From a virus, in the IMG/VR virus record IMGVR_UViG_3300002092_001594, positions 51,225-115,224 of that record: 64,000 bases of DNA. The stretch is one strand, 5' to 3'. The notes beneath the pieces were generated by a model. That model worked only from the letters and a program-made list of their open reading frames with translations, ran no database searches and was not told where the DNA came from. Position numbers and translations under genes: made by a program. This document shows positions 27,243 to 56,211 of this stretch, piece after piece. Numbering within the stretch: the stretch's first letter is position 1; each line of letters opens with the position of its first letter.

Positions 27243-29006
27243 TTAACCGAATGTTACTCCAGTTGGTAAGATGTTAAAGTCTAATTGGATGTATTCAGCT
27301 GTTCTAGTTGGTTGTAAGTAAATAGCACCTACAAGTAAGTTTCTATCAATTACATCTGGTGTGTTATTAGTTTCATCCATTACTACTCTGAATGCATACA
27401 AACCTTGTCTTTGTTGTACATATTCTAAGTAAGGATTAACTTGAGATGTAAATTTATTTCTAGTTACTGTTGTATTTTGTTCGAATACTAATGTTTGTGC
27501 AATTTGACCAATGTAACTCTTAAGTGCAATTAATAAACGTCTTACATTTACTCTATCTAAAGATGAAGCTTTAGCTTGTAATGTTTTTTGACCGTATACT
27601 ACTGTACCTTGACCTGGGAATACTGCAATTGGATTAACTTTAGAACTATATAAAGTATTTCTCTGGTTAACTGTCAATCTGATTTCAGGTTGAATTACTG
27701 TTGGTAAACCTCCTCTATTTAAACCAGCTGGTGCGAACCATTCTGCTGACACTTTATCATTGTACTCATATACCCCTGGAATTACAGTTGAAGCAGGTAC
27801 GAAATTTAATCTACCAGTCTCAGTAGATCTTGTTTGTACCCATGGGTAATAAGTAGCTCCGTATGAATTATCGTAAGTTTGAGCTGCTTGAGTTACTGAA
27901 TTAATTGTTTGATTATATCCAACTAAATCTACTACTGCAATTGCATCACCGCGATTTTGTACTGTTGATAATAAAGCACTAACTTGACTTGTTGCATTTT
28001 GAGTAGAGATGCCAGGTGCATAAATTGAATTATAAGCATATGCATCTTTATTAGCTAATAAGTTAATAGCTGTATCGTAATCACTAGCAAATACACCTTG
28101 AATATTTGTAGTAGGATCGCTTGCTACAGAAGGTATTGTAGGAATTTGTTCGAATAAATTTAATGGAGCAGTTCCAAAAGAACCGTATAAAGGACCAGTT
28201 GCGTTACCAAATGAACCGTTTGCAGATCCACTACCGTTTAAGGGAATAGAAGCTGTATATTGTGCTTGAGCTCTACCTTGTGGATTTAAATAATTCGGTG
28301 TCGGTGTAAATACGTTAGAAATTCTAATGTAGTTAGACAAATTAGGATAGCTACCTGTAACTTGGAAGTAAGCTTGACCGCTTTCGTCATATTTTACAGT
28401 TTGTGCTTGATCTCCAATTACGTAAGCAATATAATTATTTTGATTTGGATCTAAAGATAAGTTAGTCCAAGTTTCTAATACTGATTGATTTTGAGTATAG
28501 TCATTACCTTGTCTAATTAACAAAGTAAAATATCCAGAAGCGCTATCAGCTTGTGTAATTTGCCATCTAATATTATTTGAAGAACCAGAAGGTAAAATTC
28601 CGTTTACTGCTCCTGTAGCACCTTGGTTATTATTCATTACATTACCTACTGATATTGTTTCGATTTCAAAAGATGCAGATCCTAGACTATTAACTACAGT
28701 AGAAGAAGTAGCAGCAGTATAAGAACCGCTTGTTACTCTTGTTACTAACAGAGAAGTACCTCCTTGTTGAAAGTAATTATAAGCTGCTTGAGAAGTTAAA
28801 TATTCTTGTGTATTGCCTCCAGAAATGAAAGTAGTACCGAACTTAGCTGAATACTCAGAATAAGAAGTTACTAACGTAGGAGTATCTTTTCTACCAACTA
28901 CTGTAGGGCCGATTAATGCTGCTCCTACCGTGATAGGGCCTGTTGTTATTTGAGATTGATCGTTTTCTCTTAGGAAAACGCCTGGACTAATTAATGCTTC
29001 TGCCAT
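27243..29006 (-). CDS. Contractile tail sheath protein (gp18-like)
   Basis: SPGVF..E.D, YYPW, WFAPAG..RG, VNPI, GQKT, RVNVRRL, FEQN, P...EYI. Confidence 0.95.
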   Translation of the reverse strand: MAEALISPGVFLRENDQSQITTGPITVGAALIGPTVVGRKDTPTLVTSYSEYSAKFGTTFISGGNTQEYLTSQAAYNYFQQGGTSLLVTRVTSGSYTAATSSTVVNSLGSASFEIETISVGNVMNNNQGATGAVNGILPSGSSNNIRWQITQADSASGYFTLLIRQGNDYTQNQSVLETWTNLSLDPNQNNYIAYVIGDQAQTVKYDESGQAYFQVTGSYPNLSNYIRISNVFTPTPNYLNPQGRAQAQYTASIPLNGSGSANGSFGNATGPLYGSFGTAPLNLFEQIPTIPSVASDPTTNIQGVFASDYDTAINLLANKDAYAYNSIYAPGISTQNATSQVSALLSTVQNRGDAIAVVDLVGYNQTINSVTQAAQTYDNSYGATYYPWVQTRSTETGRLNFVPASTVIPGVYEYNDKVSAEWFAPAGLNRGGLPTVIQPEIRLTVNQRNTLYSSKVNPIAVFPGQGTVVYGQKTLQAKASSLDRVNVRRLLIALKSYIGQIAQTLVFEQNTTVTRNKFTSQVNPYLEYVQQRQGLYAFRVVMDETNNTPDVIDRNLLVGAIYLQPTRTAEYIQLDFNILPTGVTFG

Positions 29007-29059
29007 TTTATGTGTTTATTTCTGATAATAAATAGCTGGTAATGATGGCAAAACCTAAT

Positions 29060-29314
29060 TTATTGTATTAGGGTGATAACGCCGGTCTCTACATCGATAG
29101 AACCGTTACCGTACTTGGTGCCAAACCCTGTTAATAAGGTTTTTTCCTTAAGGGCGTTTTGCTTGATGACAGTATTTAGATTTTCAATTTCAAAGTCTAA
29201 AAGGGTCTTTCTATAGGTTAAATCACCTAAAACGCTAATGCTTTCAAAGATTTCTTCTCTAAGACCTTGAAACTCTTTAAGTTCTTCTTGTGTTAACGTA
29301 ACTTTTTCACTCAT
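29060..29314 (-). CDS. Small coiled-coil hypothetical protein
   Basis: KYG.GSID.ETG C-terminus. Confidence 0.6.
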   Translation of the reverse strand: MSEKVTLTQEELKEFQGLREEIFESISVLGDLTYRKTLLDFEIENLNTVIKQNALKEKTLLTGFGTKYGNGSIDVETGVITLIQ

Positions 29315-29319
29315 TTTAA

Positions 29320-29517
29320 TTACTTTTTAACTTTTTTAGCTAAAGTTTTAGCAACTTTTGCTTCCTTTTCTACTACTGTTTCTACTTCCTTTACTACTTC
29401 TTTAACCTCTTCAACTTTACCTTCTACCTTTTCGATAACTTGAGAGATCTTAGTTTTGTTTAATTTGTAGGCAACAAATAATGCTACTGCTACAATGATA
29501 ACGATTACTAATGTCAT
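29320..29517 (-). CDS. Small membrane-anchored protein
   Basis: N-terminal TM helix, K/E/V-rich tail; TATTTAT motif upstream. Confidence 0.6.
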   Translation of the reverse strand: MTLVIVIIVAVALFVAYKLNKTKISQVIEKVEGKVEEVKEVVKEVETVVEKEAKVAKTLAKKVKK

Positions 29518-29570
29518 AATGTGTGCTTTTATTGTTATTTTATATAAATATATAGACTTTTATAAGAACC

Positions 29571-30110
29571 TTAGATTTTAATACATTCAATATTCAAGCT
29601 TATTAAAGTACCGTTCTCTTTATCCATATGTGGAATATAAGCTTGTGAATAGTCATCAAAAGTACCGTGATCTACTTGTTTCCAGTCCCAGAGCTTTATA
29701 TTACTGAAGCCATTAAGGCTTAATAAAAAGTCTAAAGAACTATAATCGTAAATTGTTTTATGGTAGATTGTCTTATCTCCCATTTGCATTTTACCGTACA
29801 GAGGACCTAGGAATTTACTGATACTATGATCACTTGTATATAGTTTAACTATTTTTTTGAAGTCAGGAACTGATAATCTTAATATGCCGCCAGGTTTTAA
29901 GACCCTACGCCATTCATTTAGGACTGTAACAGCTTCTTCTCTATCAAAATACTCAAATACATGCGAGGCATAAATTAAGCTTACTGTATTATCTTCAAAC
30001 GGTATGTTTGTAATATCGTGAGAATGTAAATGAGGAAAATCTCCGCCGTCTATATGTGTCCATTCCGGACCAAAATCTTTTTTTCCGCAACCTAAATGTA
30101 ATTTTATCAT
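29571..30110 (-). CDS. Class I SAM methyltransferase
   Basis: LHLGCG, IYASHVFE, EWRRVLKPGG. Confidence 0.85.
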   Translation of the reverse strand: MIKLHLGCGKKDFGPEWTHIDGGDFPHLHSHDITNIPFEDNTVSLIYASHVFEYFDREEAVTVLNEWRRVLKPGGILRLSVPDFKKIVKLYTSDHSISKFLGPLYGKMQMGDKTIYHKTIYDYSSLDFLLSLNGFSNIKLWDWKQVDHGTFDDYSQAYIPHMDKENGTLISLNIECIKI

Positions 30111-30676
30111 ACTAGTTTTTTTTTTATTTTAATTCCAATATTAGTTGCAATCATAAATCTCACATCTTGTGATTTATTCTCCTGTGTTCTATGAAGGTAC
30201 CAACCTGGCATAACAACTACATCGTTTTCTTTTACCGGTACTCTTTTCCAACTCCAACTTTCATCTTGAAAAGGTACAAACTTGTAGGAGTCGTAGCTTG
30301 GATTTTTAACTTCTAATACTTCGGAATTTTCAGGTATTCTAATATAGGCACAAATAACAGCAACAACGTCCCCGTGGTTATGCTCTAATTTACTTTCACC
30401 GTAAGATGACGACCTTAACCAGGAATCTTCAATATAGTATTCATGATTGTTTGGTAGTCCCCATTTTTCGGTTATAATTTTCTTGTAGAGAGGTTCAAGA
30501 TAATCATAGTAACCTTTAAACATATCGACTTTGTGTGGTTTAAAATTTGCACCATATCTACCGTAAACATCATCGTATTCTAAATGGTATTGATGACAAA
30601 ATTCTTTTATTAAATCCCATTTAAAATCATACTCAAGCTTATAGATTTCGTTATCAAATAGTTTTACTTGTTCCAT
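30107..30676 (-). CDS. 2OG-Fe(II) oxygenase (TIGR02466-like)
   Basis: EHNH, MPGWYLHRT, R..IA.N. Confidence 0.75.
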   Translation of the reverse strand: MEQVKLFDNEIYKLEYDFKWDLIKEFCHQYHLEYDDVYGRYGANFKPHKVDMFKGYYDYLEPLYKKIITEKWGLPNNHEYYIEDSWLRSSSYGESKLEHNHGDVVAVICAYIRIPENSEVLEVKNPSYDSYKFVPFQDESWSWKRVPVKENDVVVMPGWYLHRTQENKSQDVRFMIATNIGIKIKKKLV

Positions 30677-31346
30677 CTTTTAATTGATTAAGGTTATTAC
30701 CTTTTACAAATCGCTGTGAGTAAAAGTTCTTAAAGTCTGAATGTAATACTGTTATATCTTGTGTTGTATAGACCTGCAGCCAAACTCTCCTTGGTTTATC
30801 AGATTTATTCTCTTCTGAGTAGTGTAGCGTTTCTCCATCCCAAACAATAATATCTCCTGCTTTTGAGTAAGCGGTTACATACTCTCCTGTTTTTTTATTT
30901 AGTAACCTAACAGGACCATTTTCATCTGTAAAGTCATCTAATACCCAACAACAAGTTATGCTTCGGTACCAGCCTTCAGAAGCCATTTGTGGATTAGGTC
31001 CATATCCATTATCACTATGAGGATCAAAAGTGAAATTATCGTTAGGTAGTTTAACTACTATTTGATCGTTAAATAAATAAATTTCATCAGTATCTAACAG
31101 TTCACTTGCTATGTCGTACATTAAATCAGAAGTGTAGAATTCAAACAGTTTATCGTACTCGGTACTAGCGACATCTAAGCCTGTCCAGTATTTCATAAGA
31201 CCAAACGGACGAGGCTGTCCTATTAAATTTTCATTAATAGTCCTATTCCTATAATCTAAAGTAATCTCTCTTGCTGTATCTAAAAATTCAGGAGTTAATT
31301 TATTGCTAAAAGTAATATATCCATTTTCTTCAAATTCTATATTCAT
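30654..31346 (-). CDS. PhyH-like 2OG-Fe(II) dioxygenase
   Basis: PHSD, LDDFT.ENG, AGD...W...LH.S..N.S..PRR. Confidence 0.85.
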   Translation of the reverse strand: MNIEFEENGYITFSNKLTPEFLDTAREITLDYRNRTINENLIGQPRPFGLMKYWTGLDVASTEYDKLFEFYTSDLMYDIASELLDTDEIYLFNDQIVVKLPNDNFTFDPHSDNGYGPNPQMASEGWYRSITCCWVLDDFTDENGPVRLLNKKTGEYVTAYSKAGDIIVWDGETLHYSEENKSDKPRRVWLQVYTTQDITVLHSDFKNFYSQRFVKGNNLNQLKDGTSKTI

Positions 31347-31348
31347 AC

Positions 31349-31921
31349 TTAACCTCTTTTAATTTTACATACCCAGGAAACATCAGCAAATGCTTCAAAG
31401 TTGTACGGTACTAATGAATTTCTAATTGAACATTCTTCTATATCTTCATCTTGAATTTCCAACCAATTCCATTTCTTATTATAAAACTCCTGTCCGAATA
31501 TTGTAAAATTAGAGACGTAGTCGTGTGCCATTATAACATCTCCTTCTTTTAAGAATGCTGAAAAAGTGTTAAACTCTTTCGGTTTATCTCCACCATCGCA
31601 TAGTAATAGGATTCTACCGTGGTTCTGTATTAAACTCTGTAAGTCGTACTCAAAAATATTAATATGGTTTATATCAATACCTTTACTAATTAAGTTATTA
31701 TGAGTACTATGAGGATCTTCGATATCAAACGACATCAGCTTATAGCTTAGACTGTGTTCAGCTTTAAAATCATATAAAAATTCAACAAAACCACCTACTG
31801 CAGTTCCAATCTCTACAATTAAATCAAAAGGCTCTTCTAATAGGAACTTCTCAAAGACACCCCAAGCATTAAATTGCTGCTGTGCTTTGTATTTGCCTTT
31901 ATATGTAGAATACATGTCCAT
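31349..31921 (-). CDS. CmcI/Methyltransf_24-like methyltransferase
   Basis: VEIGTAVGG, CDGG, LKEGD.IMAHD. Confidence 0.7.
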   Translation of the reverse strand: MDMYSTYKGKYKAQQQFNAWGVFEKFLLEEPFDLIVEIGTAVGGFVEFLYDFKAEHSLSYKLMSFDIEDPHSTHNNLISKGIDINHINIFEYDLQSLIQNHGRILLLCDGGDKPKEFNTFSAFLKEGDVIMAHDYVSNFTIFGQEFYNKKWNWLEIQDEDIEECSIRNSLVPYNFEAFADVSWVCKIKRG

Positions 31922-31927
31922 AAACTG

Positions 31928-31957
31928 TAATATAACCTTTTTAACAATATTATCAAA
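31928..31957 (-). promoter_or_regulatory. Bacteroidota-type promoter
   Basis: TTTG-N19-TATATTA. Confidence 0.45.
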
Positions 31958-31961
31958 CTGT

Positions 31962-33005
31962 TTATATGAGTTTTTTAGTGTTTATGTTGATTTTAGTACT
32001 ATTTTTAAAGCTATTATACTGTTCTAGGATAGTATCCCACTTCTCTTCTGAGATTACTGAGGACTGCTTTCTGTATTCTTCGGCAAATAGACTCCATGTT
32101 GAGGTATTTGACTTTATTAAGAATTTACAAAAACTTAAAGCAAATAAATCAACCATATTACATATTGTAAGCTCTTTCTCATCAGTATCGATAATATCTC
32201 CAGATAGAGTAAGGAGTTCTTTAATCTTACCTATTATAGTTTCTTTAAGAATAATATTCTTACCGTATTTTTCGACGTAATATGAAATTAAGTAAAAAGG
32301 TAAATCTGTGCTAATGTAGAACTTTTGATTTGGATTTATTTTTAAAAAATTATCAATAATATTAAAATAAACCTCATCATTGATATAAGGATACCCTTCG
32401 TGATTGTATATATAAATTTTACTCCTAAAATCAAGGTAGGATTCTTTTATGTTAGACGATTCAATGTCTATTTTATCTTTGTCGTATGCAACGCCAGAGC
32501 CTCTTCTAAGATGTATACCTATTGCATCCTTAGTAATATCTTTTAAATAGTCTTCTACTAAGTAGTTTTTTATTTTTATATGGGATAATGGACGTACTTT
32601 ATTTTGATACTCAGTCTGTAGTGTGTTTAGAAAGGTAGAAGTGAGAAGTTCGTCCCTTTCATTAAATCCGCTAAAATCAAAAGTGTAGGTCAAGTGGTTA
32701 CAGTCTGCTAATTGCTTTGCAGCATACATATGATGGCAAAAGTCTTCTCGTACTTCCTTAATGTCAGGAATATTAATAACTTTTTGATCTATGTTTTGTA
32801 CTAAGGATGTGTGAGGTAGAAAAATAAAGTCATTGCTAACTTCAGGCCATTCTGTTCGATCCATCAATATACGATGACCTTTTCCTAATGTTTCTCTTAA
32901 ATAATATGCTATCTCCCAATTCACAACCCTATTACCGAAACTTGTATCTAAATTATGCCACACGAATCGTTTGTTAATCCACATTAGCGATTTTTCAGAA
33001 TCCAT
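31962..33005 (-). CDS. GT-B fucosyltransferase-like glycosyltransferase (GT11/NodZ-like)
   Basis: FGNR, GIHLRRG, FYISTD, DLFALS.C...S..STWS. Confidence 0.75.
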   Translation of the reverse strand: MDSEKSLMWINKRFVWHNLDTSFGNRVVNWEIAYYLRETLGKGHRILMDRTEWPEVSNDFIFLPHTSLVQNIDQKVINIPDIKEVREDFCHHMYAAKQLADCNHLTYTFDFSGFNERDELLTSTFLNTLQTEYQNKVRPLSHIKIKNYLVEDYLKDITKDAIGIHLRRGSGVAYDKDKIDIESSNIKESYLDFRSKIYIYNHEGYPYINDEVYFNIIDNFLKINPNQKFYISTDLPFYLISYYVEKYGKNIILKETIIGKIKELLTLSGDIIDTDEKELTICNMVDLFALSFCKFLIKSNTSTWSLFAEEYRKQSSVISEEKWDTILEQYNSFKNSTKININTKKLI

Positions 33006-33160
33006 TAGCTTTGTGATGCCTTTAGTAACGTAATAAATTTGCTTATGATATTGTTTGATTGTGCCTTGTGCTTATCACTTAAAGGCTTCATTACTCTTTC
33101 TAAAGTAATTGCTTGATCTACCTTTTTATATACTATCTTATTTAATGTAGTCTCTGACAT
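33005..33160 (-). CDS. 51-aa hypothetical protein (not in ORF track)
   Basis: MSETTLNKIVYKKVDQAITLERVMKPLSDKHKAQSNNIISKFITLLKASQS; fills the gap exactly, TAATG-coupled to the next gene. Confidence 0.65.
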   Translation of the reverse strand: MSETTLNKIVYKKVDQAITLERVMKPLSDKHKAQSNNIISKFITLLKASQS

Positions 33161-33167
33161 GTTATTA

Positions 33168-35018
33168 TTATTTATTGTGAACTAAAAGTCCGTTTGCAAA
33201 GAAGTTATGATTATCTGCTACCGTAAAGATATACATTGTAGTTGGATTTGTATGTAATAAGATGCTGCTAAATTCTGAAATTTCTACAATACTTGTTGCT
33301 TGTCCGGTTCTTGTATATAATGAATTACCTACTTCTAGTTTATTACCTTCTGTAGTTGAGCCGTCACGTGATGCTAATGTAAGGTCTGCTTTATAGTATG
33401 GATGGTCTAAAGTTGAAGTAATTGATTTACTGTCTGCAGTATAGAGATTAATAATATTATCTTTAGTAGTTTGAACAGGATTAGAAACTGCTTTAGGTTC
33501 AACTTCTCTAGTTGTTTCATTAAATGAAGCTACTACATCTCCTTCAACAATATCTTCAATGTTTTTAAAAGAACCATCAGCCATTTCAATTTGAGTTCCT
33601 GCTGCAAAGCAATTATGAGCTATTGTAAAGAAAGTACTCATACTAAATCCGTGAATATTCTTAGTTGCTAATATAAAGTTATCTTCTTCCTCAAGGTTTA
33701 ATGCATAAACAGTTTGAGGCTCTTCAAAAATTACTAATTCAATTGAATTTACAGTAACTAGAGTACCATTACTTGAAAGAATTGAGTCTCCGGTCTTAAT
33801 ATCTAAAACTCTTCGGTATTTTATAGTATTTGTTTCTTTATTATATACTAATAATCTCGTCTCACCTCCTATTACTATCTCTTCACCATCTCCAAAATTT
33901 ATAGAGGTCATTTCGTTAGTATAAGTTAAGCCGCTATAGATATCAACTAAAGTTGAAATAGTTTCATGTGATCCTTCTGGTAATACGTTACCGCTTATTA
34001 ACCAGTCTCTAATAATAGCCTCGTCATCTGTGTTTGGAGCACTTTCTATAGAGTAAGACTTAAATTTATCGCCTATCTTTACGTCTTTAATTTGAATAGT
34101 GTTACCTTCTTCGTCTAAAATTTCAGTATCTCCAATAAACCCATGTCTAATATTTTTAACATGGTTTGTTGCAAACTCATAATAATGTTTATTAGATACT
34201 TTATTAACTAATGATTTATCGTCGAATCCAACTTCAGTCGGCAAATCAAGAACGGCTAAAATTTCATAGTCAGCAACAGTACATAAATCTAGATTAGGTC
34301 CGTATACGATTTGAAATGAACGAACTGAACTAACCTTATTATTATTACTTTCAACTGCAGCTGGTGAGTAGTGGTATTGTTGTAATACTAAATTGTGATC
34401 ATTTATTTCTTCTAAGAAAGAATTAAGTCTATTCTGTATTGGTAGTTCGGATTGGCCTATTTTATAAAAGCCGTGTGATTTATGTTCTTCAATTGTTGAC
34501 TTTACAATAACATCCGGAATATTACCTTGATTTAATAAGTCAATATCAAGTGTATTGTAGTCTCCATTCAAGTTAGATGAATGGTAAAAATTAACAGTAG
34601 ATTGAGAATCGCCTGCATCAGCAAATAACTTTAATAAGTTTAATGTGCCTTTAGCGTATTCAGAATCCAATATTGATGTCTCATCGTACGCCATTCTTAA
34701 AACAAAGGTACTACCGTTATCGTCGATTGCTGGAGGAAAGATACTATCTTCAGGAGTCAAGATTGGATTTAGTGTAATAGAAGGAGCGCTTTTCTCTAGG
34801 GATTCTCTTAGTGATTCAATAATAGGGTACTGAATACTATGCTTATACACCACGGTCAATTCCGTAATTGCATTATTGTTTAATACGTTAAAAAATTCAG
34901 ACCAATCGAATACAGATTTTTGAGATTCAATAATACCAGTATCAGTATTTATCTCAATTAAGCGCAAATCGTCGTTTTGGTCTCTAACAAAATCAGCCGA
35001 AAAAAAAGTTCCTTTCAT
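33168..35018 (-). CDS. Circularly permuted ATP-grasp-like domain fused to two tandem Hint (intein-like) domains
   Basis: N-terminal ADF..D....LIEINT then VIVK, VLQQY, SVR; Hint1 GFIGDTEI...IAHN; Hint2 CFAAGTQI...TLDHP...LVHNK. Confidence 0.75.
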   Translation of the reverse strand: MKGTFFSADFVRDQNDDLRLIEINTDTGIIESQKSVFDWSEFFNVLNNNAITELTVVYKHSIQYPIIESLRESLEKSAPSITLNPILTPEDSIFPPAIDDNGSTFVLRMAYDETSILDSEYAKGTLNLLKLFADAGDSQSTVNFYHSSNLNGDYNTLDIDLLNQGNIPDVIVKSTIEEHKSHGFYKIGQSELPIQNRLNSFLEEINDHNLVLQQYHYSPAAVESNNNKVSSVRSFQIVYGPNLDLCTVADYEILAVLDLPTEVGFDDKSLVNKVSNKHYYEFATNHVKNIRHGFIGDTEILDEEGNTIQIKDVKIGDKFKSYSIESAPNTDDEAIIRDWLISGNVLPEGSHETISTLVDIYSGLTYTNEMTSINFGDGEEIVIGGETRLLVYNKETNTIKYRRVLDIKTGDSILSSNGTLVTVNSIELVIFEEPQTVYALNLEEEDNFILATKNIHGFSMSTFFTIAHNCFAAGTQIEMADGSFKNIEDIVEGDVVASFNETTREVEPKAVSNPVQTTKDNIINLYTADSKSITSTLDHPYYKADLTLASRDGSTTEGNKLEVGNSLYTRTGQATSIVEISEFSSILLHTNPTTMYIFTVADNHNFFANGLLVHNK

Positions 35019-35028
35019 AAAATTACCA

Positions 35029-35050
35029 GTTTTATATAAATATCTACTAA
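35029..35050 (-). repeat. 22-bp element copy 2 (putative late promoter)
   Basis: Identical to 26842-26863. Confidence 0.85.
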
Positions 35051-35085
35051 ATTCAGATATTCAAGTCAATTATGTATATATATGT

Positions 35086-36159
35086 CTATACGATCTTCTT
35101 TGTTATATCTACTACGTCGTGTAAATTGTGATATACCTGCGGCTCAATCCATATCTTCTTAGCTTCTTCAATAAAATCACTGTATTCAGGATGTATTGGA
35201 TCCCAGACTTTAACGAATTCGTATTGATTACAGTTAAATGTTCCCCAGTTATTAATTTTAATGAATAAAACAGATGCTTTTTTACCGAATATTCCTTTAA
35301 TTAAGTCAGCAAACATCCTCATTTCTTTATAATTAGCTTGTTGAACTACAAATGACGTTCTTACCTCTTCTAAACTCGGAATTGTACTAATAAATTTAAG
35401 GTTTTTGATTAAATTATCCCAATTACCGTTTAATCTAGTTTTATTTTCATAGGTTTCTTTAGTTGCAGCGTCAATACTGATCTCACAGGTCTTTACATAC
35501 TTGTGAATATTCGGCATAGTGTTCCACATCTTCTCGTTCCACATAGATGCATTAGTATGCAAGTGAATACTCTTAAGTTTTGGGTATTCATCCTTGTTAA
35601 AGTTTTGTAAGAAAGCTCTGAATGTGTTAGAAACGAAGGGATCTCCAGATGCAGTGAAGTATAGTGTCTTAGCATCCTTTGAAAACAGTCTTTTCATCTC
35701 TGTCATAGTGTCTTCTATCTCTATTAAATTTTCTGGAGTAGCTTTATAGGTCTCTTTTCTACAAGAAGGACATTTATAATTACAGCTCTTGTCGAAATTA
35801 TGTTCTATTTTTTCAGGACCTACTTCCATATAAGGGTCTTGATTAATAAACTTCTCTTTAAACTTATTTGGTAGGTCGTCCTTGTGGTAAATTGGGCCTT
35901 TAGGATCTACTTCATTAAACTTCAATAGATATGATAGGTATGGACATTGAGTAGCATCACAATGTCTGTATGACCCATCCATTACCGATCTTCTTGACTC
36001 TAAAGAATCTTCTGAGTTCCAAATCTCACTTAAAGGTTGGTTTTCAGGATTTCTTTTAATTAGCCACTCAGGAATACAGAGGAAATATTGATTTTCTTCA
36101 TGTATGTGTAGAAATCTAAAAGGTGCTGTACACACATAGTTTTTTAAATCAACTTTCAT
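35086..36159 (-). CDS. Radical SAM protein with N-terminal SPASM/twitch-like Cys domain
   Basis: CTAPF..C...CD..QCP; CNYKCPSC; SGDPF; LHTNA; ISIDA. Confidence 0.85.
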   Translation of the reverse strand: MKVDLKNYVCTAPFRFLHIHEENQYFLCIPEWLIKRNPENQPLSEIWNSEDSLESRRSVMDGSYRHCDATQCPYLSYLLKFNEVDPKGPIYHKDDLPNKFKEKFINQDPYMEVGPEKIEHNFDKSCNYKCPSCRKETYKATPENLIEIEDTMTEMKRLFSKDAKTLYFTASGDPFVSNTFRAFLQNFNKDEYPKLKSIHLHTNASMWNEKMWNTMPNIHKYVKTCEISIDAATKETYENKTRLNGNWDNLIKNLKFISTIPSLEEVRTSFVVQQANYKEMRMFADLIKGIFGKKASVLFIKINNWGTFNCNQYEFVKVWDPIHPEYSDFIEEAKKIWIEPQVYHNLHDVVDITKKIV

Positions 36160-37233
36160 TTATATAATCTCCTTTTTTATTTCAATAAATTCGTACATGT
36201 TATGAAACACTTGTGTATCTCTCCAAACTTTATTAAACTCTTTTTTAAAAAGATCGTGTTCAGGATGATTAACATCCCATACTTTCTTAAGTTTAAATTC
36301 TCCTTCGGTAAAAGTATCCCAGTTGTTTATCTTACCAAAAAACACATGAACTTTTTTGCCAAAGATTGATTTCATTAGCTTCAAAAATATTTCCATTTCA
36401 CCATAATTACTATCTTGCACTACAAAAGAAGTCTTAATATACTTTAATACAGGTATCTTTGCTATGAAACGTAAGTTATCAATTAAGTTATCCCAATTAC
36501 CTCCTAAACGTGTCTTATTTTCATAAGTGTCTCTGGTACCTGCATCTATACTTATCTCACAGCTCTTAACATACGGCCAAACATTTTTCATGCTATCCCA
36601 CATCTTTTCGTTCCACATTGACGCATTAGTGTGTAAGTGTATGTTCTTTAACTTTGGATACTTCTTAGGGTCAAACGTTCGTAAAAAATCTCTAAAGCCA
36701 ACTGATACGAATGGATCACCACTTCCAGTAATAAACATTGTGGATAAATTCTTTGCGAACTTAGTTTCTATTTCTAAAAGGGTAGCTTTTACTCTTTCAA
36801 TACCTTTTGAGTTTTCAACAATTAAGTCAACTCGACATGATGGACATTTATAATTACAAGTTCTATCAAATGCAAATTGGATAACAGAAGGACCAACATT
36901 CATCTCTCCAGTTTCGATATTATAGTTATCGGTTATATAGCTTGGTGTATCCTTTCTTTCAACTATTGGATTTACATTATTTAATTTCTTATCGTTTATT
37001 AATTCTGATAAAAAAGGACATTGCTTTTTATCACAATACTTGTAAGAGCCATCGTGAATTGATTTTCTTATTTCTTTAGCTTCCTCAGAATTCCAAACTT
37101 CATCTAATGGCTTTTTCATATCTGGAGATATGTTGTTGGGTAACCAGGTGGGACAACACATGAAGATAGCCTGATTGTGAATTTCAATATTTACAAACGG
37201 AGCTGTGCATATGTAATTTTTTAAATCTCTCAT
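36160..37233 (-). CDS. Radical SAM protein, tandem paralog of the neighbour
   Basis: Same motifs, same length (357 aa). Confidence 0.85.
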   Translation of the reverse strand: MRDLKNYICTAPFVNIEIHNQAIFMCCPTWLPNNISPDMKKPLDEVWNSEEAKEIRKSIHDGSYKYCDKKQCPFLSELINDKKLNNVNPIVERKDTPSYITDNYNIETGEMNVGPSVIQFAFDRTCNYKCPSCRVDLIVENSKGIERVKATLLEIETKFAKNLSTMFITGSGDPFVSVGFRDFLRTFDPKKYPKLKNIHLHTNASMWNEKMWDSMKNVWPYVKSCEISIDAGTRDTYENKTRLGGNWDNLIDNLRFIAKIPVLKYIKTSFVVQDSNYGEMEIFLKLMKSIFGKKVHVFFGKINNWDTFTEGEFKLKKVWDVNHPEHDLFKKEFNKVWRDTQVFHNMYEFIEIKKEII

Positions 37234-37812
37234 TTATATTAATTTATTTTTTTTAAGTACATATCCATTTGGTGCTATATTTGATTTGAATGTCTCTAAT
37301 TGTGTAAAAATATTTTGTTCACTACTTTTCATTCTTATCTTTTTCCCATTTATAATAGATAACTCATAATCGTAAGGAAATTTTATTTTCCTATTATTAA
37401 AATAGTCTAGTAACTTAATAGCGCCTTGATAAGATATAAAATATGAATAACAGCTACCCTCTACTCCTAAGTTATAAAGGTCAAACTCTCTAAAGTCCAC
37501 ACTCCTCCAATCAAAACTATTAACCATATCGATATCATCCTCTATTATTAGTATATTACTTCTAGATTCAGCTGATAATTTAATTAATGACAGATGTGAT
37601 AGAAATGTTGCCATAGTTGCTTTTTGGCTAAAGTCCCATTCGATCAAAAAATCATCAACAAAATATTTTTTTTCTAATTCTACTGTAACATCCTTTGGTT
37701 CTACTGCATTAAAAAAATCAAACTCTAATCCGATTCTATCTTTTATAGATTTCATCCATATTCTTCTATCCTTATCTAATTCTAAGGAAATGCAGTAGGT
37801 TTTGAATTCCAT
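37234..37812 (-). CDS. Glycosyltransferase family 25
   Basis: YCISL..RR, FF.AV, LSH, LIIEDD, Y.IS..GA.KL. Confidence 0.8.
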   Translation of the reverse strand: MEFKTYCISLELDKDRRIWMKSIKDRIGLEFDFFNAVEPKDVTVELEKKYFVDDFLIEWDFSQKATMATFLSHLSLIKLSAESRSNILIIEDDIDMVNSFDWRSVDFREFDLYNLGVEGSCYSYFISYQGAIKLLDYFNNRKIKFPYDYELSIINGKKIRMKSSEQNIFTQLETFKSNIAPNGYVLKKNKLI

Positions 37813-38457
37813 TTAAATATACTTATTATCTTTCACCTTAAAGCTATTGTGAATATATAATGCGTCGTTATTGCTACTGAATAGTTTAGTGTATCCATAC
37901 CCATATAACAAGTTATCGAAGTCTTCATACGAAGTGCCTGACTCATAGAAAATATCAAATGCGCAGATTTCTGACCAAATGCATGCTGGTCTGTAGTTGC
38001 CTAGTTTACTCAATATCTTATATTCTGCGCCTTCAGCATCAATATGTATGAAGTCTGGTGAGACATTATTTTCATCGCAGAATTTATTTAGAATTATGCT
38101 TTGAACAAAGTAGGGTTTTCCGTACGTCAAATTAAAATACTCAGTTGGAATTGGTTTTAATGTGCTACTAGATATGTTCCAATTTTTTTGACCATTGAGT
38201 GTATCGGATGGATAAAATATTATTTCACCTTCAGTATCAGATAGTGCATAATGAAAGTAATTTATTCCATGGTCAGCTGCTGTTATGCTATTACTTTCTT
38301 TAAATTTTTCATTACATTCGAATGCATAAAATTCTGCGTTTGGTAAATGATTTTTAAAGTCAATTGTATCACCTAAGTCGGAACATCCAATGTTGAAAAA
38401 ATTTATTTTCTTATTGTAAAAATTATTTACCAAAAAATCTGTACTTAAATCGCTCAT
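37813..38457 (-). CDS. FkbM-family methyltransferase
   Basis: NIGC, AFEC, ALSD, IHIDAEGAE. Confidence 0.85.
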   Translation of the reverse strand: MSDLSTDFLVNNFYNKKINFFNIGCSDLGDTIDFKNHLPNAEFYAFECNEKFKESNSITAADHGINYFHYALSDTEGEIIFYPSDTLNGQKNWNISSSTLKPIPTEYFNLTYGKPYFVQSIILNKFCDENNVSPDFIHIDAEGAEYKILSKLGNYRPACIWSEICAFDIFYESGTSYEDFDNLLYGYGYTKLFSSNNDALYIHNSFKVKDNKYI

Positions 38458-38462
38458 AATTT

Positions 38463-40016
38463 TTATTTAAAAAACATTTGATTGTTTATTACTAATATGT
38501 CTATGTCTGTTTCTAAAAAAGTTTTTAAAGCATCTTCTGGGGTTAATATCATGGTCTTATCTTTGATATTAAATGAGGTGTTAAGTAAAATTGGATACCC
38601 GCTTAACTTTTCAAAGCGTGTTAATAATTTGTACATATTACCTTTACGATCATATACTGTTTGTATTCTAGCTGTTCCATCTACATGCGTTATTGCTTTT
38701 AACTTGTCTCTGTATTCTTCTCTTACTTTAACGACTTGATTCATATAAGGAATGAAATCGTATGATTCAAAGTAAGTGCTTTGTGCAAACTGAGTAACCA
38801 TTGGTGCAAAAGGCCTAAACATCTCTCGCTTCTTAATAAGCTTGTTTATTCGATCTTGCATTCCTGGTATAGTCGGGCTAGCTAATATACTCCTATGTCC
38901 TAATGCACGTGCACCAAACTCAATTCTACCTTCATACCAGCCTACTACCTTTCCTTTGTGTAATTCCTTTGCTATAACATTTAAATCTAGCATTTTTGTG
39001 TTGCACGTTGTAAATTCGTACTCTGGACCTAAGAAAGGATCTTGTTTTATACGGTGATGTACAAAATTAGTACAAGCGCCAATGCAAGAACCTGCATCTG
39101 AAGGTGCAACAGGTATCCAGATATTCTTATAAGGGGTATTTTCCTTTATCTTACCGTTTGCAGTACCGTTATAGGCACATCCTCCGCTTAAACATAAGTT
39201 TTCCCCCGGATATAGGTTTAAAAAGTGAAATAATGCTTTTTCGTAGATCCATTGAAGAGATGCTGCAATATCTTTATGTCTTTGCTCTATCGGCTCGTCA
39301 GGAAGCCTGTTGTCCCCTAATAGTTCTATTAAATGATGACTAAACATTACTTTATTACTACTATCCCACGTAAAGTACTTCATATCTACGTGTAATCCTC
39401 TCTTATAGTTCAGTAATTTTCTAAACTTACCTTTATACTTTGTCGGATCTCCGTAAGAAGCGAGTCCCATTACCTTATATTCACCTTCGTTTGGTTTAAA
39501 ACCTAAATAGGCAGTGATAGCAGAGTATAATAGTCCTAGAGAGTGAGGATACTTAACAGTAAGTTCAGGAATAAACTCTCCGTTTACTACTCTTACTATT
39601 TTTAACGTTTCTTCTTCACCTACTCCGTCAATACTAACTAAAGTTGCATCTGCAAAGGGAGAACTGTTGTAAGCATACATTAAATGAGACATGTGGTGTT
39701 CAGAAAAAAACACGGTATCGCTAAGCTTCTTTAGTTTAAACCATACTTTAATACCTGTCCACAAGGTTCTAGGTACAGATCTCCAATTATGCTTTAAAGC
39801 TCTTAGTAATTTTAAATGCGGCTTTTCGTAATAACATACTACATCGAACTTATCGGTGTAAGTATCCTTAATATACTGTATTGCATTGATAGGGAAAGAA
39901 GAATCATGCTTTATTCCTGTGAATTTCTCTTCTTCACATGCAAACACGAGTTTTCCGTCCTGAAATAGACAAGCAGCCGAATCGTGATAATATGCTGATA
40001 TTCCTAGTACGTTCAT
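38463..40016 (-). CDS. NodU/CmcH-family O-carbamoyltransferase
   Basis: YYHDSAA, EHHMSH, DGVGE, EYKVMGLASYG, SGGCAYN, EFGARALGHRS, FRPFAP, LNTSFN. Confidence 0.93.
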   Translation of the reverse strand: MNVLGISAYYHDSAACLFQDGKLVFACEEEKFTGIKHDSSFPINAIQYIKDTYTDKFDVVCYYEKPHLKLLRALKHNWRSVPRTLWTGIKVWFKLKKLSDTVFFSEHHMSHLMYAYNSSPFADATLVSIDGVGEEETLKIVRVVNGEFIPELTVKYPHSLGLLYSAITAYLGFKPNEGEYKVMGLASYGDPTKYKGKFRKLLNYKRGLHVDMKYFTWDSSNKVMFSHHLIELLGDNRLPDEPIEQRHKDIAASLQWIYEKALFHFLNLYPGENLCLSGGCAYNGTANGKIKENTPYKNIWIPVAPSDAGSCIGACTNFVHHRIKQDPFLGPEYEFTTCNTKMLDLNVIAKELHKGKVVGWYEGRIEFGARALGHRSILASPTIPGMQDRINKLIKKREMFRPFAPMVTQFAQSTYFESYDFIPYMNQVVKVREEYRDKLKAITHVDGTARIQTVYDRKGNMYKLLTRFEKLSGYPILLNTSFNIKDKTMILTPEDALKTFLETDIDILVINNQMFFK

Positions 40017-40132
40017 TAGTGGTTATAGATAAATGGATCACGCTTTTTTAACTCTTCGATTTTCTTCTTAAATCGCTTTTTGCGCTTACGCTCTTCCCAT
40101 TTGTCTTTAAACCACTTTATTAGTTTTTTCAT
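40016..40132 (-). CDS. 38-aa basic peptide coupled to the carbamoyltransferase (not in ORF track)
   Basis: MKKLIKWFKDKWEERKRKKRFKKKIEELKKRDPFIYNH; TAATG overlap; own promoter. Confidence 0.7.
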   Translation of the reverse strand: MKKLIKWFKDKWEERKRKKRFKKKIEELKKRDPFIYNH

Positions 40133-40147
40133 AACAGATTCTTTGTA

Positions 40148-40179
40148 TAAAAATAGGAGTATTCTATTAAACTTCCAAA
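40148..40179 (-). promoter_or_regulatory. Bacteroidota-type promoter
   Basis: TTTG-N20-TATTTTTA. Confidence 0.55.
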
Positions 40180-40853: not shown

Positions 40854-40871
40854 AATTCGTTAATTTTATGA

Positions 40872-40887
40872 TTATAAATATTTATAA
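40872..40887. promoter_or_regulatory. Perfect 16-bp palindrome carrying TATTTAT on both strands between divergent genes
   Basis: TTATAAATATTTATAA. Confidence 0.6.
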
Positions 40888-40904
40888 ACAGAAATAAGTT
40901 GCAA

Positions 40905-52270: not shown

Positions 52271-53167
52271 TTAAATTGCTTTGTATTTATCTAAAACACT
52301 CTTACCGTCTTTTTGATCTAGGATGTTAGAATACCATTCGTGAGAATACTCACAAATATCTCTCCAATTATCAATGCTATTTAATCCAGCATCTTCAACA
52401 GCTTTTCTTACTACGTAATAATTTATACCTCTGTAACCTTGTGGATGAATTCCATTAGAAACTAAATACCTATATAAAATTGTTCCAGGTCCATACCAGT
52501 ATGTTGAGTCTTGTATAAATTTGTTAGCACCATAGGTTGCCATATTTTCTAATTGAACGTTTCTATACCATCTACAACAATTTGATATTATATCCATAGT
52601 TGGAGAATTGGAATAGAAGAATACATCATCAAAATTGGGATAATTAAATTCTTGAGGAAATCTCTGAAGAACAGGTACTGTAGAATAGGCTGTTAAGTGA
52701 TTGACATTGTGTATGTGAAATTTATCTAATCGACATCCTAAATTACAAACTCCTTCTTGTGGATAGTTAATATCTAACCTAGCTCTTATTACTAAATCGT
52801 AAACAAAATTATTTTCAACTTCATGCTTTTTCTTAAGCCACACACTTTTCATAAAGCTGTATAGTAAAGTTTCCCATAAAGTAGTATAGTTATCTTTATT
52901 ATACTCCTCCATCTCTATAGCAACAGGATTAAAGGCTTGTATTAGATCTTCTTTTTCATTAGGTGACACTTTTTCATCTGTTCTCTGCAGCCATACAATA
53001 TCATTCTTGCCTCTATATTGATTAGTATCCCAGGTATGTATAAAAAAATCAACTTGACAACCGTACTCTGTAAGGTCGTAATACTTTAATATATTATCCT
53101 TTGCTGTTCGCCATGTTCTTGCTTGTCCACTTAAGCAAACTGCTATTTTTCGAATTCTTCCAAACAT
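52271..53167 (-). CDS. Putative glycosyltransferase-like protein
   Basis: IAVCLSGQ.R, DFFIHTW, YD.VIR.R.D, DD.FF. Confidence 0.55.
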   Translation of the reverse strand: MFGRIRKIAVCLSGQARTWRTAKDNILKYYDLTEYGCQVDFFIHTWDTNQYRGKNDIVWLQRTDEKVSPNEKEDLIQAFNPVAIEMEEYNKDNYTTLWETLLYSFMKSVWLKKKHEVENNFVYDLVIRARLDINYPQEGVCNLGCRLDKFHIHNVNHLTAYSTVPVLQRFPQEFNYPNFDDVFFYSNSPTMDIISNCCRWYRNVQLENMATYGANKFIQDSTYWYGPGTILYRYLVSNGIHPQGYRGINYYVVRKAVEDAGLNSIDNWRDICEYSHEWYSNILDQKDGKSVLDKYKAI

Positions 53168-56210: not shown

Positions 56211-56211
56211 A

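What the first reader, a model, noticed from the sequence alone, without database searches (positions are those of the whole stretch)
30107..38457. Shared C-terminal K-x-[I/V] tag on unrelated modification enzymes
Seen: seven of ten consecutive ORFs here, from unrelated folds, end in a Lys-rich tail with terminal Ile/Val. They are 2OG oxygenase ..KKKLV, PhyH ..SKTI, fucosyltransferase ..TKKLI, radical SAM ..TKKIV, radical SAM ..KKEII, GT25 ..KNKLI and FkbM ..DNKYI. The ORF at 52271-53167 also ends ..KYKAI. Replication and tail proteins in the window do not end this way. The tails appear to lie beyond the catalytic domains. Inference: a phage-encoded C-terminal addressing code. It could dock the enzymes on a common scaffold or assembling virion, act as a packaging signal or degron, or be the carboxylate substrate of the ATP-grasp ligase encoded in the middle of the block.
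Basis: partly seen in the sequence, partly recalled or inferred. Interest (0 to 1): 0.85.

Follow-up and report, generated by a model that had tools for sequence, protein, structure and literature searches.

The report
Shared end-tag on phage tailoring enzymes
Six neighbouring enzymes of this uncultured T4-like phage, from five unrelated families, end in the same short lysine-then-hydrophobic tail, a diverged form of a tail that hundreds of unrelated enzymes carry in related phages next to one ligase/self-cutting protein; its reader is unknown.

Summary
The quoted tails are all present at the stated coordinates, and their clustering is far beyond chance. K-x-[IV]-stop occurs in 6 of 10 island genes against 1 of 154 elsewhere in the genome. 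The composition-matched P is 2e-9, and 0 of 200,000 gene-order shuffles reach this count.

Lysine-rich C-termini are a genome-wide habit. The terminal aliphatic residues are what mark the island.

Two quoted cases are not real tags:
- PhyH ..SKTI is a by-product of a ~1.9-kb deletion.
- ORF 52271-53167 (..KAI) fits chance.

In 80 related viral contigs, 48% of proteins around the same ligase/Hint gene end in about K-[TSNK]-[LI]-[IL]. They come from at least 8 folds. AT-rich control contigs without that gene give 5%.

Synonymous codon use at the tail matches the background. Stop codon and downstream context vary, linkers are hypervariable, and distant homologues lack the tail. The tag is therefore selected as a peptide.

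The most likely role is a docking or address label read by one common partner, possibly the permuted ATP-grasp/Hint protein. This role is not shown. I found no paper describing the tag. Earlier notes of this scan report the same tag on more than a dozen other phage genomes.

The parts
30107..30676 (-). 2OG-Fe(II) oxygenase (PF13759), tagged: ..KKKLV (tag codons 30110-30124)
   Evidence: Pfam hit. The near-identical phage L001 and two database homologues end ..KKKLL. A 32%-identical homologue in L053 ends ..NKFLI.
30654..31346 (-). PhyH dioxygenase with a pseudo-tag ..SKTI
   Evidence: Its last 23 nt overlap the 2OG start. The alignment with L001 shows that a ~1.9-kb deletion joined the PhyH 3' end to the 2OG 5' region. 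The L001 orthologue (95% identity) ends ..NRLKK.
31349..31921 (-). 190-aa protein of no known family, untagged (..KIKRG)
   Evidence: The L001 orthologue ends ..KIKKS.
31962..33005 (-).
   Evidence: There is no Pfam or NCBIfam hit. Homologues at 38-82% identity keep K-[KNRIT]-[LIF]-[ILF] behind a hypervariable linker, except P0208 (71%), which ends ..SNII. Many homologues at 29-39% identity end differently.
33005..33160 (-). 51-aa ORF, untagged, not Cys-rich
33168..35018 (-). Permuted ATP-grasp-like ligase domain (residues 1-288) plus Hint 1 (about 291-469) plus Hint 2 (470-615), ending ..LVHNK. It is untagged, a candidate reader, and the hallmark gene of the island.
   Evidence: Pfam and NCBIfam detect Hint/intein domains. 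The AF2 model has pLDDT 77. Hint 2 matches 6tmm at Z 22, Hint 1 matches inteins and Hedgehog at Z about 17, and the N-domain matches glutathione and glutathionylspermidine synthetase-type ligases at Z 6-9. H468, N469 and C470 are invariant in 30 relatives.
35086..36159 (-). Radical SAM (twitch/SPASM-like), paralogue b, tagged: ..KKIV (35089-35100)
   Evidence: The next gene starts 67 nt downstream, so the tail is not part of a start region.
36160..37233 (-). Radical SAM, paralogue a, tagged: ..KKEII (36163-36177)
   Evidence: The tail K-[TSE]-[LIM]-I is kept in about 80 homologues at 57-63% identity, with synonymous codon changes and different stops and downstream genes. In the AF2 model the last 5 residues have pLDDT below 50.
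37234..37812 (-). GT25 glycosyltransferase, tagged: ..KNKLI (37237-37251)
   Evidence: The conserved core ends ..SNIAPNGY. The window's clade adds VLKKNKL[IV], a clade at 55% identity adds IKKxK[LV]L(L), and more distant homologues stop just after the core.
37813..38457 (-). FkbM methyltransferase, tagged: ..NKYI (37816-37827)
   Evidence: Tyr213 is invariant in the family and only Ile follows it here. Some homologues append KNLI, IKKDSLI or KKYI after that Tyr, but most of 150 representatives have no such end.
38463..40016 (-). Carbamoyltransferase (PF02543/PF16861), untagged (..QMFFK), conserved island neighbour
29571..30110 (-). Class I methyltransferase at the island edge, ends ..ECIKI; membership unclear
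   Evidence: It has no homologue in the 80 loci.
52271..53167 (-). 298-aa ORF ending ..KYKAI; probably a chance match, not part of the system
   Evidence: It is the only K-x-[IV] end among 154 non-island genes, where 3.5 are expected from the C-terminal position frequencies. It has no homologue in the related loci.

Best explanation
Six island enzymes carry a diverged copy (K-K/N-x-[IV]) of a short C-terminal peptide label. They are the 2OG oxygenase, the 347-aa protein, the two radical SAM paralogues, GT25 and FkbM. In a large group of uncultured T4-like and jumbo phages this label, about K-[TSNK]-[LI]-[IL]-COOH, marks the tailoring enzymes encoded around one gene. That gene encodes a permuted ATP-grasp-like ligase fused to Hint domain(s). 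The label is a flexible tail outside the catalytic fold. Its free hydrophobic end and preceding basic residues most likely plug otherwise unrelated, interchangeable enzymes onto one common partner. The best candidate partner is the ligase/Hint protein itself, which in most relatives also carries a hypervariable Cys-rich peptide that these enzymes may modify. Shown: the label exists, is selected as a peptide and is specific to this island type. Inferred: that it is a docking label, and who reads it.
For: **Clustering in the window**
- 6 of 10 island genes against 1 of 154 others; P is 2e-9 to 3e-8; 0 of 200,000 permutations reach this.

**Replication in 80 loci fetched with the radical SAM protein**
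- Among 826 proteins dereplicated at 90% identity, position -1 is I 41% / L 16%, -2 is L 39% / I 16%, and -4 is K 33%.
- 66 of 235 families are tagged, against an 8% dipeptide expectation.
- Arrays of 8-13 consecutive tagged genes occur.

**Tagged folds**
- 2OG/DSBH, sulfotransferase, radical SAM, FkbM, GT25, SET, Trp halogenase, Asp/Asn hydroxylase and GDSL-like.
- In the same loci the ligase/Hint protein, carbamoyltransferase, APS kinase, Hsp20 and DUF2061 are untagged.

**Selection on the peptide**
- Codon use at tail positions equals the background for the same residues, and Ser uses both AGY and TCN codons.
- Stops are TAA 224, TGA 104 and TAG 48.
- Tags occur at all distances from the next gene.
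- The last four positions are more conserved (0.40-0.67) than positions -5 to -13 (0.20-0.36).

**Specificity**
- 47 viral loci fetched with FkbM that lack the ligase/Hint gene have untagged FkbM.
- In the 25 AT-rich ones (33.9% GC), 25 of 460 proteins (5.4%) have aliphatic-dipeptide ends, against 400 of 826 (48%) in the ligase/Hint loci.
- Distant homologues of GT25, FkbM, the 347-aa protein and the radical SAM lack the tail.

**Flexibility**
- The last five residues of radical SAM a have pLDDT below 50 in a model of mean pLDDT 82.

**Candidate reader**
- The ligase/Hint gene lies within +/-10 kb in 61 of the 80 loci. It was not used as the query, and many of the loci are short fragments.
- It and the carbamoyltransferase are the only recurrent untagged island genes that the window retains. 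APS kinase, family 26 and DUF2061 are absent from this genome.
- Its N-domain resembles glutathione and glutathionylspermidine synthetases, ligases that, by established knowledge, bind a peptide's C-terminal carboxylate.
Against: - No reader has been identified, and no binding or localisation is shown.
- Co-occurrence with the ligase/Hint gene could simply reflect common descent of the island.
- The window's tags are a weak, diverged version. Position -3 is K or E rather than T or S, two tags end in V, and in FkbM only one residue is added.
- Some island enzymes are untagged without an obvious reason (PhyH, the 190-aa protein, carbamoyltransferase).
- The window's ligase/Hint protein has no Cys-rich peptide, since a second Hint domain replaces it. 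A 'dock on the substrate carrier' model needs a different substrate here.
- The motif barely changes between clades whose ligase domains are only about 20% identical. That fits a very conserved groove, but equally a conserved host reader.
Confidence: 0.45

Rival explanations
1. The tail is a degron or unfoldase handle. Basic residues followed by a terminal aliphatic residue resemble the MuA-type C-terminal ClpX recognition signal (..RRKKAI, recalled from the literature, not checked here). The tail would then limit the lifetime of the tailoring enzymes or hand them to a host AAA+ machine.
For: - The window's tails (KKLI, KKIV, KKKLV) look like the MuA type.
- The tag is exposed and flexible and must be at the very C-terminus.
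- The motif is nearly constant across phage clades with very divergent ligase domains, as expected for a conserved host reader.
Against: - The tag occurs only on enzymes of this island and not on other phage proteins.
- It was not seen in AT-rich phage loci lacking the ligase/Hint gene. A general host degron would not be expected to be so confined.
- The hosts are unknown and no degradation data exist.
Confidence: 0.15
2. The terminal carboxylate of the tail is a true substrate of the permuted ATP-grasp ligase. The ligase would activate it and join the enzyme covalently to an amine, for example the N-terminus of the peptide released by the Hint domain, or a residue of the ligase/Hint protein.
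For: - The N-domain's nearest folds are glutathione synthetase, glutathionylspermidine synthetase, YgiC and, more weakly, tubulin-tyrosine ligase (Z 5-9). By established knowledge these act on C-terminal carboxylates of peptides or proteins.
- Acidic and basic residues including an E-x-N motif are invariant in 30 relatives, which suggests an active enzyme.
- The tag is always at the extreme C-terminus.
Against: - Consuming each enzyme molecule in one ligation is uneconomical.
- No acceptor is identified.
- The fold scores are middling and there is no Pfam ATP-grasp hit.
- The ligase may equally act on its own fused peptide.
Confidence: 0.1
3. The tail directs location rather than binding a specific enzyme partner. 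It could give weak membrane association through lysines plus two aliphatic residues, or act as a packaging or compartment signal like encapsulin cargo peptides.
For: - The basic-then-hydrophobic character fits.
- A small membrane protein (DUF2061) is common in related islands.
- Several tagged enzymes are glycan-type enzymes that often work at membranes.
Against: - Four to five residues is very short for a membrane anchor.
- DUF2061 is absent from this genome although the tags persist.
- Nothing links the enzymes to virions.
Confidence: 0.1
4. There is no peptide function. The tails would reflect AT-rich codons, the translation start region of the tightly packed next gene, a shared DNA junction used in cassette shuffling, or chance.
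For: - The genome is 33.6% GC and Lys is enriched at all C-termini.
- Three window junctions read ATA/ATT-TAA-ATG, and ..KKEII encodes AAGGAG 9 nt before the next start.
- ATA is moderately over-used as the last codon (0.64 against 0.46).
- Tags are commonest where genes abut.
- One quoted tail (PhyH) really is a junction artefact.
Against: - Composition-matched and position-matched tests reject chance.
- Codon choice at -2 to -5 equals the background, and Ser uses two codon boxes.
- The stop codon and the downstream gene vary.
- Tags persist with gaps above 60 nt and before convergent genes.
- Tightly packed genes elsewhere in this genome, and AT-matched control loci, lack the tag.
Confidence: 0.04

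Closest known systems
CIA targeting-complex recognition tripeptide, [LIM]-[DES]-[WF]-COO- of eukaryotic cytosolic Fe-S proteins (10.1101/2023.05.19.541488 = PMC10245660; abstract read)
   Same: A very short motif at the extreme C-terminus, shared by unrelated client proteins, recruits them to one common machine.
   Different: The sequence differs: acidic then aromatic, against basic then two aliphatic residues. It is eukaryotic and its reader is known.
PTS1 (-SKL-COOH, read by Pex5 TPRs) and class I PDZ ligands ([ST]-x-hydrophobic-COOH); textbook knowledge, not checked in a paper here
   Same: Both use a free carboxylate plus 3-4 residues as an address or docking label. In related phages about half of the tags have T or S at -3 and an aliphatic last residue, which formally fits a class I PDZ ligand.
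   Different: None of the window's six tags has S or T at -3. I made no dedicated search for a PDZ or TPR reader; Pfam on one representative of ten untagged island families found none. PTS1 is a eukaryotic organelle signal.
ClpX C-terminal recognition signal of the MuA type (..RRKKAI; recalled from the literature, not verified here)
   Same: Lysine/arginine-rich stretch followed by a terminal aliphatic residue, read at the free C-terminus. The window's KKLI, KKIV and KKKLV resemble it most.
   Different: The MuA signal is a remodelling or degradation handle on single proteins. It is not a label shared by a whole pathway, and no link to ClpX is shown here.
Tandem arrays of dioxygenases with halogenases and sulfotransferases in cyanophages such as Syn9 (Iyer et al. 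2010, PMC2938197; read)
   Same: The same sort of phage gene neighbourhood: many unrelated 2OG dioxygenases in tandem, with Trp halogenase and sulfotransferases, proposed to modify peptides or metabolites.
   Different: In the passages I searched (terms 'phage' and 'sulfotransferase'), that paper does not report a shared C-terminal tail or a ligase/Hint precursor. The ligase domain and the radical SAM of this island have no match in 50,697 GenBank phage records.
Encapsulin cargo-loading peptides and microcompartment encapsulation peptides (textbook knowledge)
   Same: Short C-terminal extensions that bring unrelated enzymes to one protein shell or scaffold.
   Different: Those peptides are longer (about 8-20 residues), with different consensus sequences and known shell partners. 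No shell gene is associated here.

Membership tests
Shared C-terminal tag of ligase/Hint tailoring islands (about K-[TSNK]-[LI]-[IL]-COOH) | Two aliphatic residues as the very last residues, preceded by Lys/Asn within three positions | tested here: met
   Five of the six credible window tags end LV, LI, IV, II or LI. FkbM ends YI. K lies at -3 to -5 in all six. The consensus comes from 826 related proteins.
Shared C-terminal tag of ligase/Hint tailoring islands (about K-[TSNK]-[LI]-[IL]-COOH) | Encoded within a few genes of the permuted ATP-grasp/Hint gene and absent from other genes of the phage | tested here: met
   All six tagged genes lie within 3.5 kb of 33168-35018. Only 1 of 154 other genes matches. 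Control loci without the gene show 5.4%.
Shared C-terminal tag of ligase/Hint tailoring islands (about K-[TSNK]-[LI]-[IL]-COOH) | Selected as a peptide, not as DNA | tested here: met
   Codon use is background-like, Ser uses two codon boxes, all three stops occur and downstream context varies.
Shared C-terminal tag of ligase/Hint tailoring islands (about K-[TSNK]-[LI]-[IL]-COOH) | Lies outside the conserved fold, behind a variable linker, and is missing from distant homologues | tested here: met
   This holds for GT25, the 347-aa protein and radical SAM a (tail pLDDT below 50). For FkbM only one residue is added. For 2OG only close homologues were available.
Class I PDZ-binding motif | Ser/Thr at position -3 from the end (p-2) and a hydrophobic last residue | tested here: not met
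   Window tags have K, K, K, E, K, K at that position. In related phages T plus S reach about 53%.
Di-lysine ER-retrieval signal (KKXX / KXKXX) | Lys at -3 and at -4 or -5, on the cytosolic tail of a eukaryotic membrane protein | tested here: not met
   The spacing fits KKKLV, KKLI, KKIV and KNKLI. However, the carrier is a tailed phage (sheath and baseplate genes) and the related consensus has K at -4 and not at -3. I did not test whether the proteins are soluble. The resemblance is coincidental.
ClpX C-motif of the MuA type | Recognition and unfolding by ClpX through the basic-aliphatic C-terminus | not testable with these tools
   There is only sequence resemblance. The host and its ClpX are unknown.
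ATP-grasp ligases (glutathione synthetase-like, permuted) | ATP-grasp fold with Mg/ATP-binding E-x-N and conserved Lys/Arg | tested here: inconclusive
   There is no Pfam hit for the N-domain. Fold matches to glutathione and glutathionylspermidine synthetases and YgiC give Z 6-9 over 186-234 residues and Foldseek E about 1e-4. E22, N24, K173, R108 and R233 are invariant.
Hint / intein-like domains | Hint fold with terminal His-Asn followed by Cys | tested here: met
   PF07591 and PF14890 hit, as do TIGR01445 and TIGR01443. Hint 2 matches at Z 22 and Hint 1 at Z about 17. H468-N469-C470 is invariant.

The most novel reading that the evidence does not exclude
The tail is a plug. Its free carboxylate and two aliphatic residues would sit in the peptide-carboxylate site of the permuted glutathione-synthetase-like ligase domain, so that a changing set of unrelated enzymes is recruited onto one Hint-processed carrier protein. 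The recruitment could be non-covalent or, more radically, ATP-dependent and covalent. That would be a modular 'plug-in' assembly line for peptide or glycan tailoring, invented by phages, with a transferable four-residue address.
Probability: 0.3. Interest if true: 0.9.

Novelty: new variant of a known kind. Interest (0 to 1): 0.78.

Why it matters
Short C-terminal address labels are known for organelles, proteases and a few assembly machines. I know of no pathway-specific label shared by dozens of unrelated enzyme families in a virus, and my searches found none. If a reader exists, the label explains how these phages can swap tailoring enzymes in and out of a hypervariable island and still have them act together. 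It would also give a simple, transferable four-residue handle for recruiting enzymes to a scaffold. In addition, it flags which genes of such islands belong to one pathway. That is a practical annotation rule for large amounts of viral 'dark matter'.

Tried and rejected
- **Complex prediction.** The ligase/Hint protein (residues 1-470, alignment A2) was folded with GT25 (alignment A1). The result was 'no answer' (score 0.00, controls not run), which is neither support nor evidence against binding.
- The genomic context of the tagged and untagged FkbM database homologues could not be fetched. I used a viral-contig scan with FkbM as a control instead.
- **Too-diverse alignment.** The first FkbM alignment was too diverse for the locus scan.
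- **Phage tmRNA.** I looked for a phage tmRNA whose tag peptide might resemble the tail. ARAGORN finds only tRNA-Ser and tRNA-Thr in the genome.
- **Concerted tag change.** I tested for concerted change of the tag between clades of the ligase domain, as a sign of reader-tag co-evolution. The motif is nearly the same in all clades, so the test does not discriminate.
- **Isolated phages.** The ligase domain (window and L072 forms) and the radical SAM have no match in GenBank phages.
- **Cellular genomes.** The pattern-limited scan found no cellular homologue of the ligase/Hint protein. Two MAG contigs carry untagged radical SAM homologues without the ligase gene.
- **RNA families.** Rfam found nothing in 29000-41000.
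- **Rejected readings.** Di-lysine ER retrieval is rejected because the carrier is a tailed phage and the consensus spacing is wrong. AT bias and start-region constraints are rejected as the main cause; see the last rival explanation.

Full report
**What is in the window**

The window is the right-hand 64 kb of a 115,224-bp viral contig of 33.6% GC. The tail sheath is 52% identical to that of Flavobacterium phage immuto.

Pfam confirms 2OG-FeII_Oxy_5, PhyH, two radical SAM proteins, GT25 and FkbM. The 'fucosyltransferase' (31962-33005) matches no Pfam or NCBIfam family.

**Is it more than chance?**

I called 164 genes with a simple longest-ORF procedure. C-termini depend only on stop codons, so start choice does not matter.

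Lysine is strongly enriched at C-termini throughout the genome. 48 of 164 proteins end in K and 34 of 164 have K at -3, against 8.2% overall. Lys-rich tails as such are therefore ordinary here.

The combination K-x-[IV]-stop is not ordinary:
- It occurs in 6 of 10 island genes and 1 of 154 others (Fisher 6e-8).
- With each island protein's own internal K-x-[IV] frequency as an AT-matched null, P(>=6 of 10) is 2.4e-9.
- With the C-terminal position frequencies of non-island genes, it is 2.7e-8.
- No shuffle of gene order out of 200,000 reached 6 in a 10-gene window.

**Two quoted tails do not belong**
- The last 23 nt of PhyH overlap the 2OG start. An alignment with the near-identical phage L001 shows that the window lost about 1.9 kb between two similar short sequences. 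PhyH therefore now reads into the 2OG 5' region. The L001 orthologue, 95% identical, ends ..NRLKK.
- The ..KYKAI of ORF 52271-53167 is the single hit among 154 non-island genes, which is no more than chance predicts. This ORF has no relative in the related loci.

This leaves six tagged genes from five independent families, because the radical SAM genes are paralogues at 50% identity.

**Related phages**

A scan of viral contigs with radical SAM a gave 124 relatives. I kept 80 loci of up to 21 kb. One of the source contigs, a complete 335-kb record, has a sheath homologue, so these are tailed phages, some of jumbo size.

The radical SAM tail is K-[TSE]-[LIM]-I in almost all of them, at only 57-63% identity. 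Synonymous differences, all three stop codons and different downstream genes accompany it.

The same ending sits on many neighbouring genes. I dereplicated the neighbours to 826 proteins in 235 families:
- Position -1 is I in 41% and L in 16%.
- Position -2 is L in 39% and I in 16%.
- Position -3 is K or T (19.5% each), S or N.
- Position -4 is K in 33%.

Weighted by family, 66 of 235 families are tagged (23 of 55 with three or more members). The background expectation for such a dipeptide is 8%. Gene maps show runs of 8-13 consecutive tagged genes.

Tagged families include several 2OG oxygenase families, sulfotransferases, the radical SAM, a Trp halogenase, SET-domain proteins, an Asp/Asn hydroxylase, a GDSL-like protein and several proteins of unknown family. 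The window adds FkbM, GT25 and the 347-aa protein.

Untagged in the same loci are the ligase/Hint protein, carbamoyltransferase, APS kinase, Hsp20, DUF2061 and a large GT1-FkbM fusion. Peptide deformylase is also not a tag carrier, because its ..YEIV end is conserved together with the whole C-terminus.

**Peptide or DNA?**

Several results point to selection on the peptide:
- At tail positions -2 to -5, codon use equals the background for the same residue. For Leu at -2, TTA/TTG/CTA are 0.71/0.13/0.09 against 0.67/0.14/0.09.
- Ser at -3 uses both AGY and TCN codons.
- Only the last codon shows a moderate excess of ATA (0.64 against 0.46), as expected where the next ATG overlaps.
- Stops are TAA 224, TGA 104 and TAG 48.
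- Tags are commonest where genes abut. They still occur on 36% of genes with a 60-150-nt gap, on 17% with a larger gap, and before convergent genes.
- Anchored at the C-terminus, the last four positions are more conserved (0.50, 0.40, 0.67, 0.61) than positions -5 to -13 (0.20-0.36).
- In the 347-aa family, a hypervariable linker of variable length precedes a kept K-[KN]-[LIF]-[ILF].

**Do homologues elsewhere have it?**
- **GT25:** the conserved core ends ..SNIAPNGY. The window's clade adds VLKKNKL[IV], a clade at 55% identity adds IKKxK[LV]L(L), and homologues at 40-48% stop right after the core.
- **FkbM:** among 150 representatives of a 1.8-billion-protein library, most end a few residues after the last conserved strand. 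A few append KNLI, IKKDSLI or KKYI after an invariant Tyr. The window adds only Ile after that Tyr.
- **347-aa protein:** many homologues at 29-39% identity end in acidic or other tails, while others in that range still carry a tag-like end.
- **Radical SAM:** homologues at 37-40% identity in two MAG contigs are untagged and have no ligase/Hint neighbour.

**An independent control**

I fetched 48 viral loci with FkbM instead of the radical SAM. Apart from the window's close relative, none has the ligase/Hint gene. Their FkbM proteins are untagged. In the 25 AT-rich ones (mean 33.9% GC) only 25 of 460 proteins (5.4%) end in an aliphatic dipeptide and 7 of 460 in K-x-[IV]. This compares with 400 of 826 (48%) in the ligase/Hint loci. 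AT bias does not explain the tag.

**The hallmark gene**

An AlphaFold model of 33168-35018 (pLDDT 77) has three parts:
- Residues 466-616 form a bacterial-intein-like Hint domain (6tmm, Z 22).
- Residues 291-465 form a second Hint fold (Z about 17 to inteins and Hedgehog).
- Residues 1-288 resemble glutathione synthetase, glutathionylspermidine synthetase and YgiC (Z 6-9; Foldseek E about 1e-4). These belong to the permuted branch of ATP-grasp ligases.

Thirty relatives share invariant acidic and basic residues in the N-domain and an invariant His-Asn-Cys at the end of Hint 1. In most relatives a hypervariable, Cys-rich peptide of about 30 residues follows that junction. In the window's clade one or more further Hint domains replace this peptide and the protein ends ..HNK.

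The window's genome lacks the APS kinase, family 26 and DUF2061 genes common in other islands. Of the recurrent untagged island genes, only the ligase/Hint protein and the carbamoyltransferase remain here as phage-encoded candidates for a reader.

**How it probably works**

The tail of radical SAM a is predicted to be disordered: its last five residues have pLDDT below 50 in a model of mean 82. The tag must be at the free end, it is kept on at least eight folds, and it travels with one gene.

The simplest reading is a docking or address label read by one partner. The ligase/Hint protein is the best candidate. By established knowledge, its fold family binds C-terminal carboxylates of peptides.

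This step is inference. The rivals are set out separately: a degron of the MuA/ClpX type, a true ligase substrate, and a location signal.

**Literature and earlier notes**

Iyer et al. (PMC2938197) described tandem dioxygenase arrays with halogenases and sulfotransferases in cyanophages. The passages I retrieved from it do not mention a shared tail. My full-text searches found no paper describing one.

The closest analogue in logic is the C-terminal tripeptide that brings Fe-S clients to the CIA targeting complex.

Earlier notes of this scan report the same tag on more than a dozen other phage genomes. One of them reports a model with the tail in a groove of the ligase, and I could not reproduce that here (see Tried and rejected). 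My conclusions rest on the tests above, not on those notes.

**What this window adds**
- A diverged form of the tag, with K at -3 and two tags ending in V.
- A clade in which the tag persists although the Cys-rich peptide is replaced by a second Hint domain.
- A clear example of a false member created by a deletion.
- An AT-matched negative control.

Noticed in passing
window 33168-35018: The ligase/Hint protein has two tandem Hint folds joined at an invariant His-Asn-Cys. In most related phages the second Hint is replaced by a hypervariable Cys-rich peptide of about 30 residues, and some relatives (L003, L012) carry three further Hint domains. It looks like a self-cleaving precursor whose released part differs between clades.
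   Followed up: partly
window 30640-30760 against L001:16500-18500: Relative to a near-identical phage, the window has lost about 1.9 kb (two genes). The loss lies between two similar stretches of about 25-30 nt at the PhyH 3' end and upstream of the 2OG gene, and it created a 23-nt gene overlap and a new PhyH C-terminus.
   Followed up: yes
whole genome (G000), all gene ends: 29% of all predicted proteins end in Lys, and Lys is 2-3 times enriched at positions -1 to -6. This may reflect A-rich start regions of closely following genes in a host that does not rely on Shine-Dalgarno pairing, or termination context. It was not tested.
   Followed up: no
window 54804-60691; L130:1936-9024; L129:8597-11101: A contig binned as a Flavobacteriales MAG (29% GC) is colinear with this second island of the window: seven genes at 35-70% identity, with an untagged radical SAM homologue inserted. 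In a Bdellovibrio MAG the homologue of 54804-56210 is fused to the radical SAM in one 834-aa protein that lies between genes with flagellin-like N-termini. This suggests that the radical SAM works with that protein on a glycan or flagellin modification.
   Followed up: partly
window 35086-37233: Tandem radical SAM paralogues (50% identity) are best matched, below the cut-off, by NCBIfam N_Twi_rSAM (twitch-domain radical SAM). Related phages have only one copy.
   Followed up: partly
genome positions 32052-32316 (before the window): ARAGORN finds tRNA-Ser(tga) and tRNA-Thr(tgt) but no tmRNA, although an earlier first-reader note on this genome mentions a tmRNA in that RNA cluster.
   Followed up: no
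L022:1607-2842, L053:8383-8763, L024:1178-1726: Related islands also carry a tagged Trp halogenase, SET-domain proteins and an Asp/Asn beta-hydroxylase. These enzyme types usually act on peptides or proteins, which fits the Cys-rich peptide as their substrate.
   Followed up: partly
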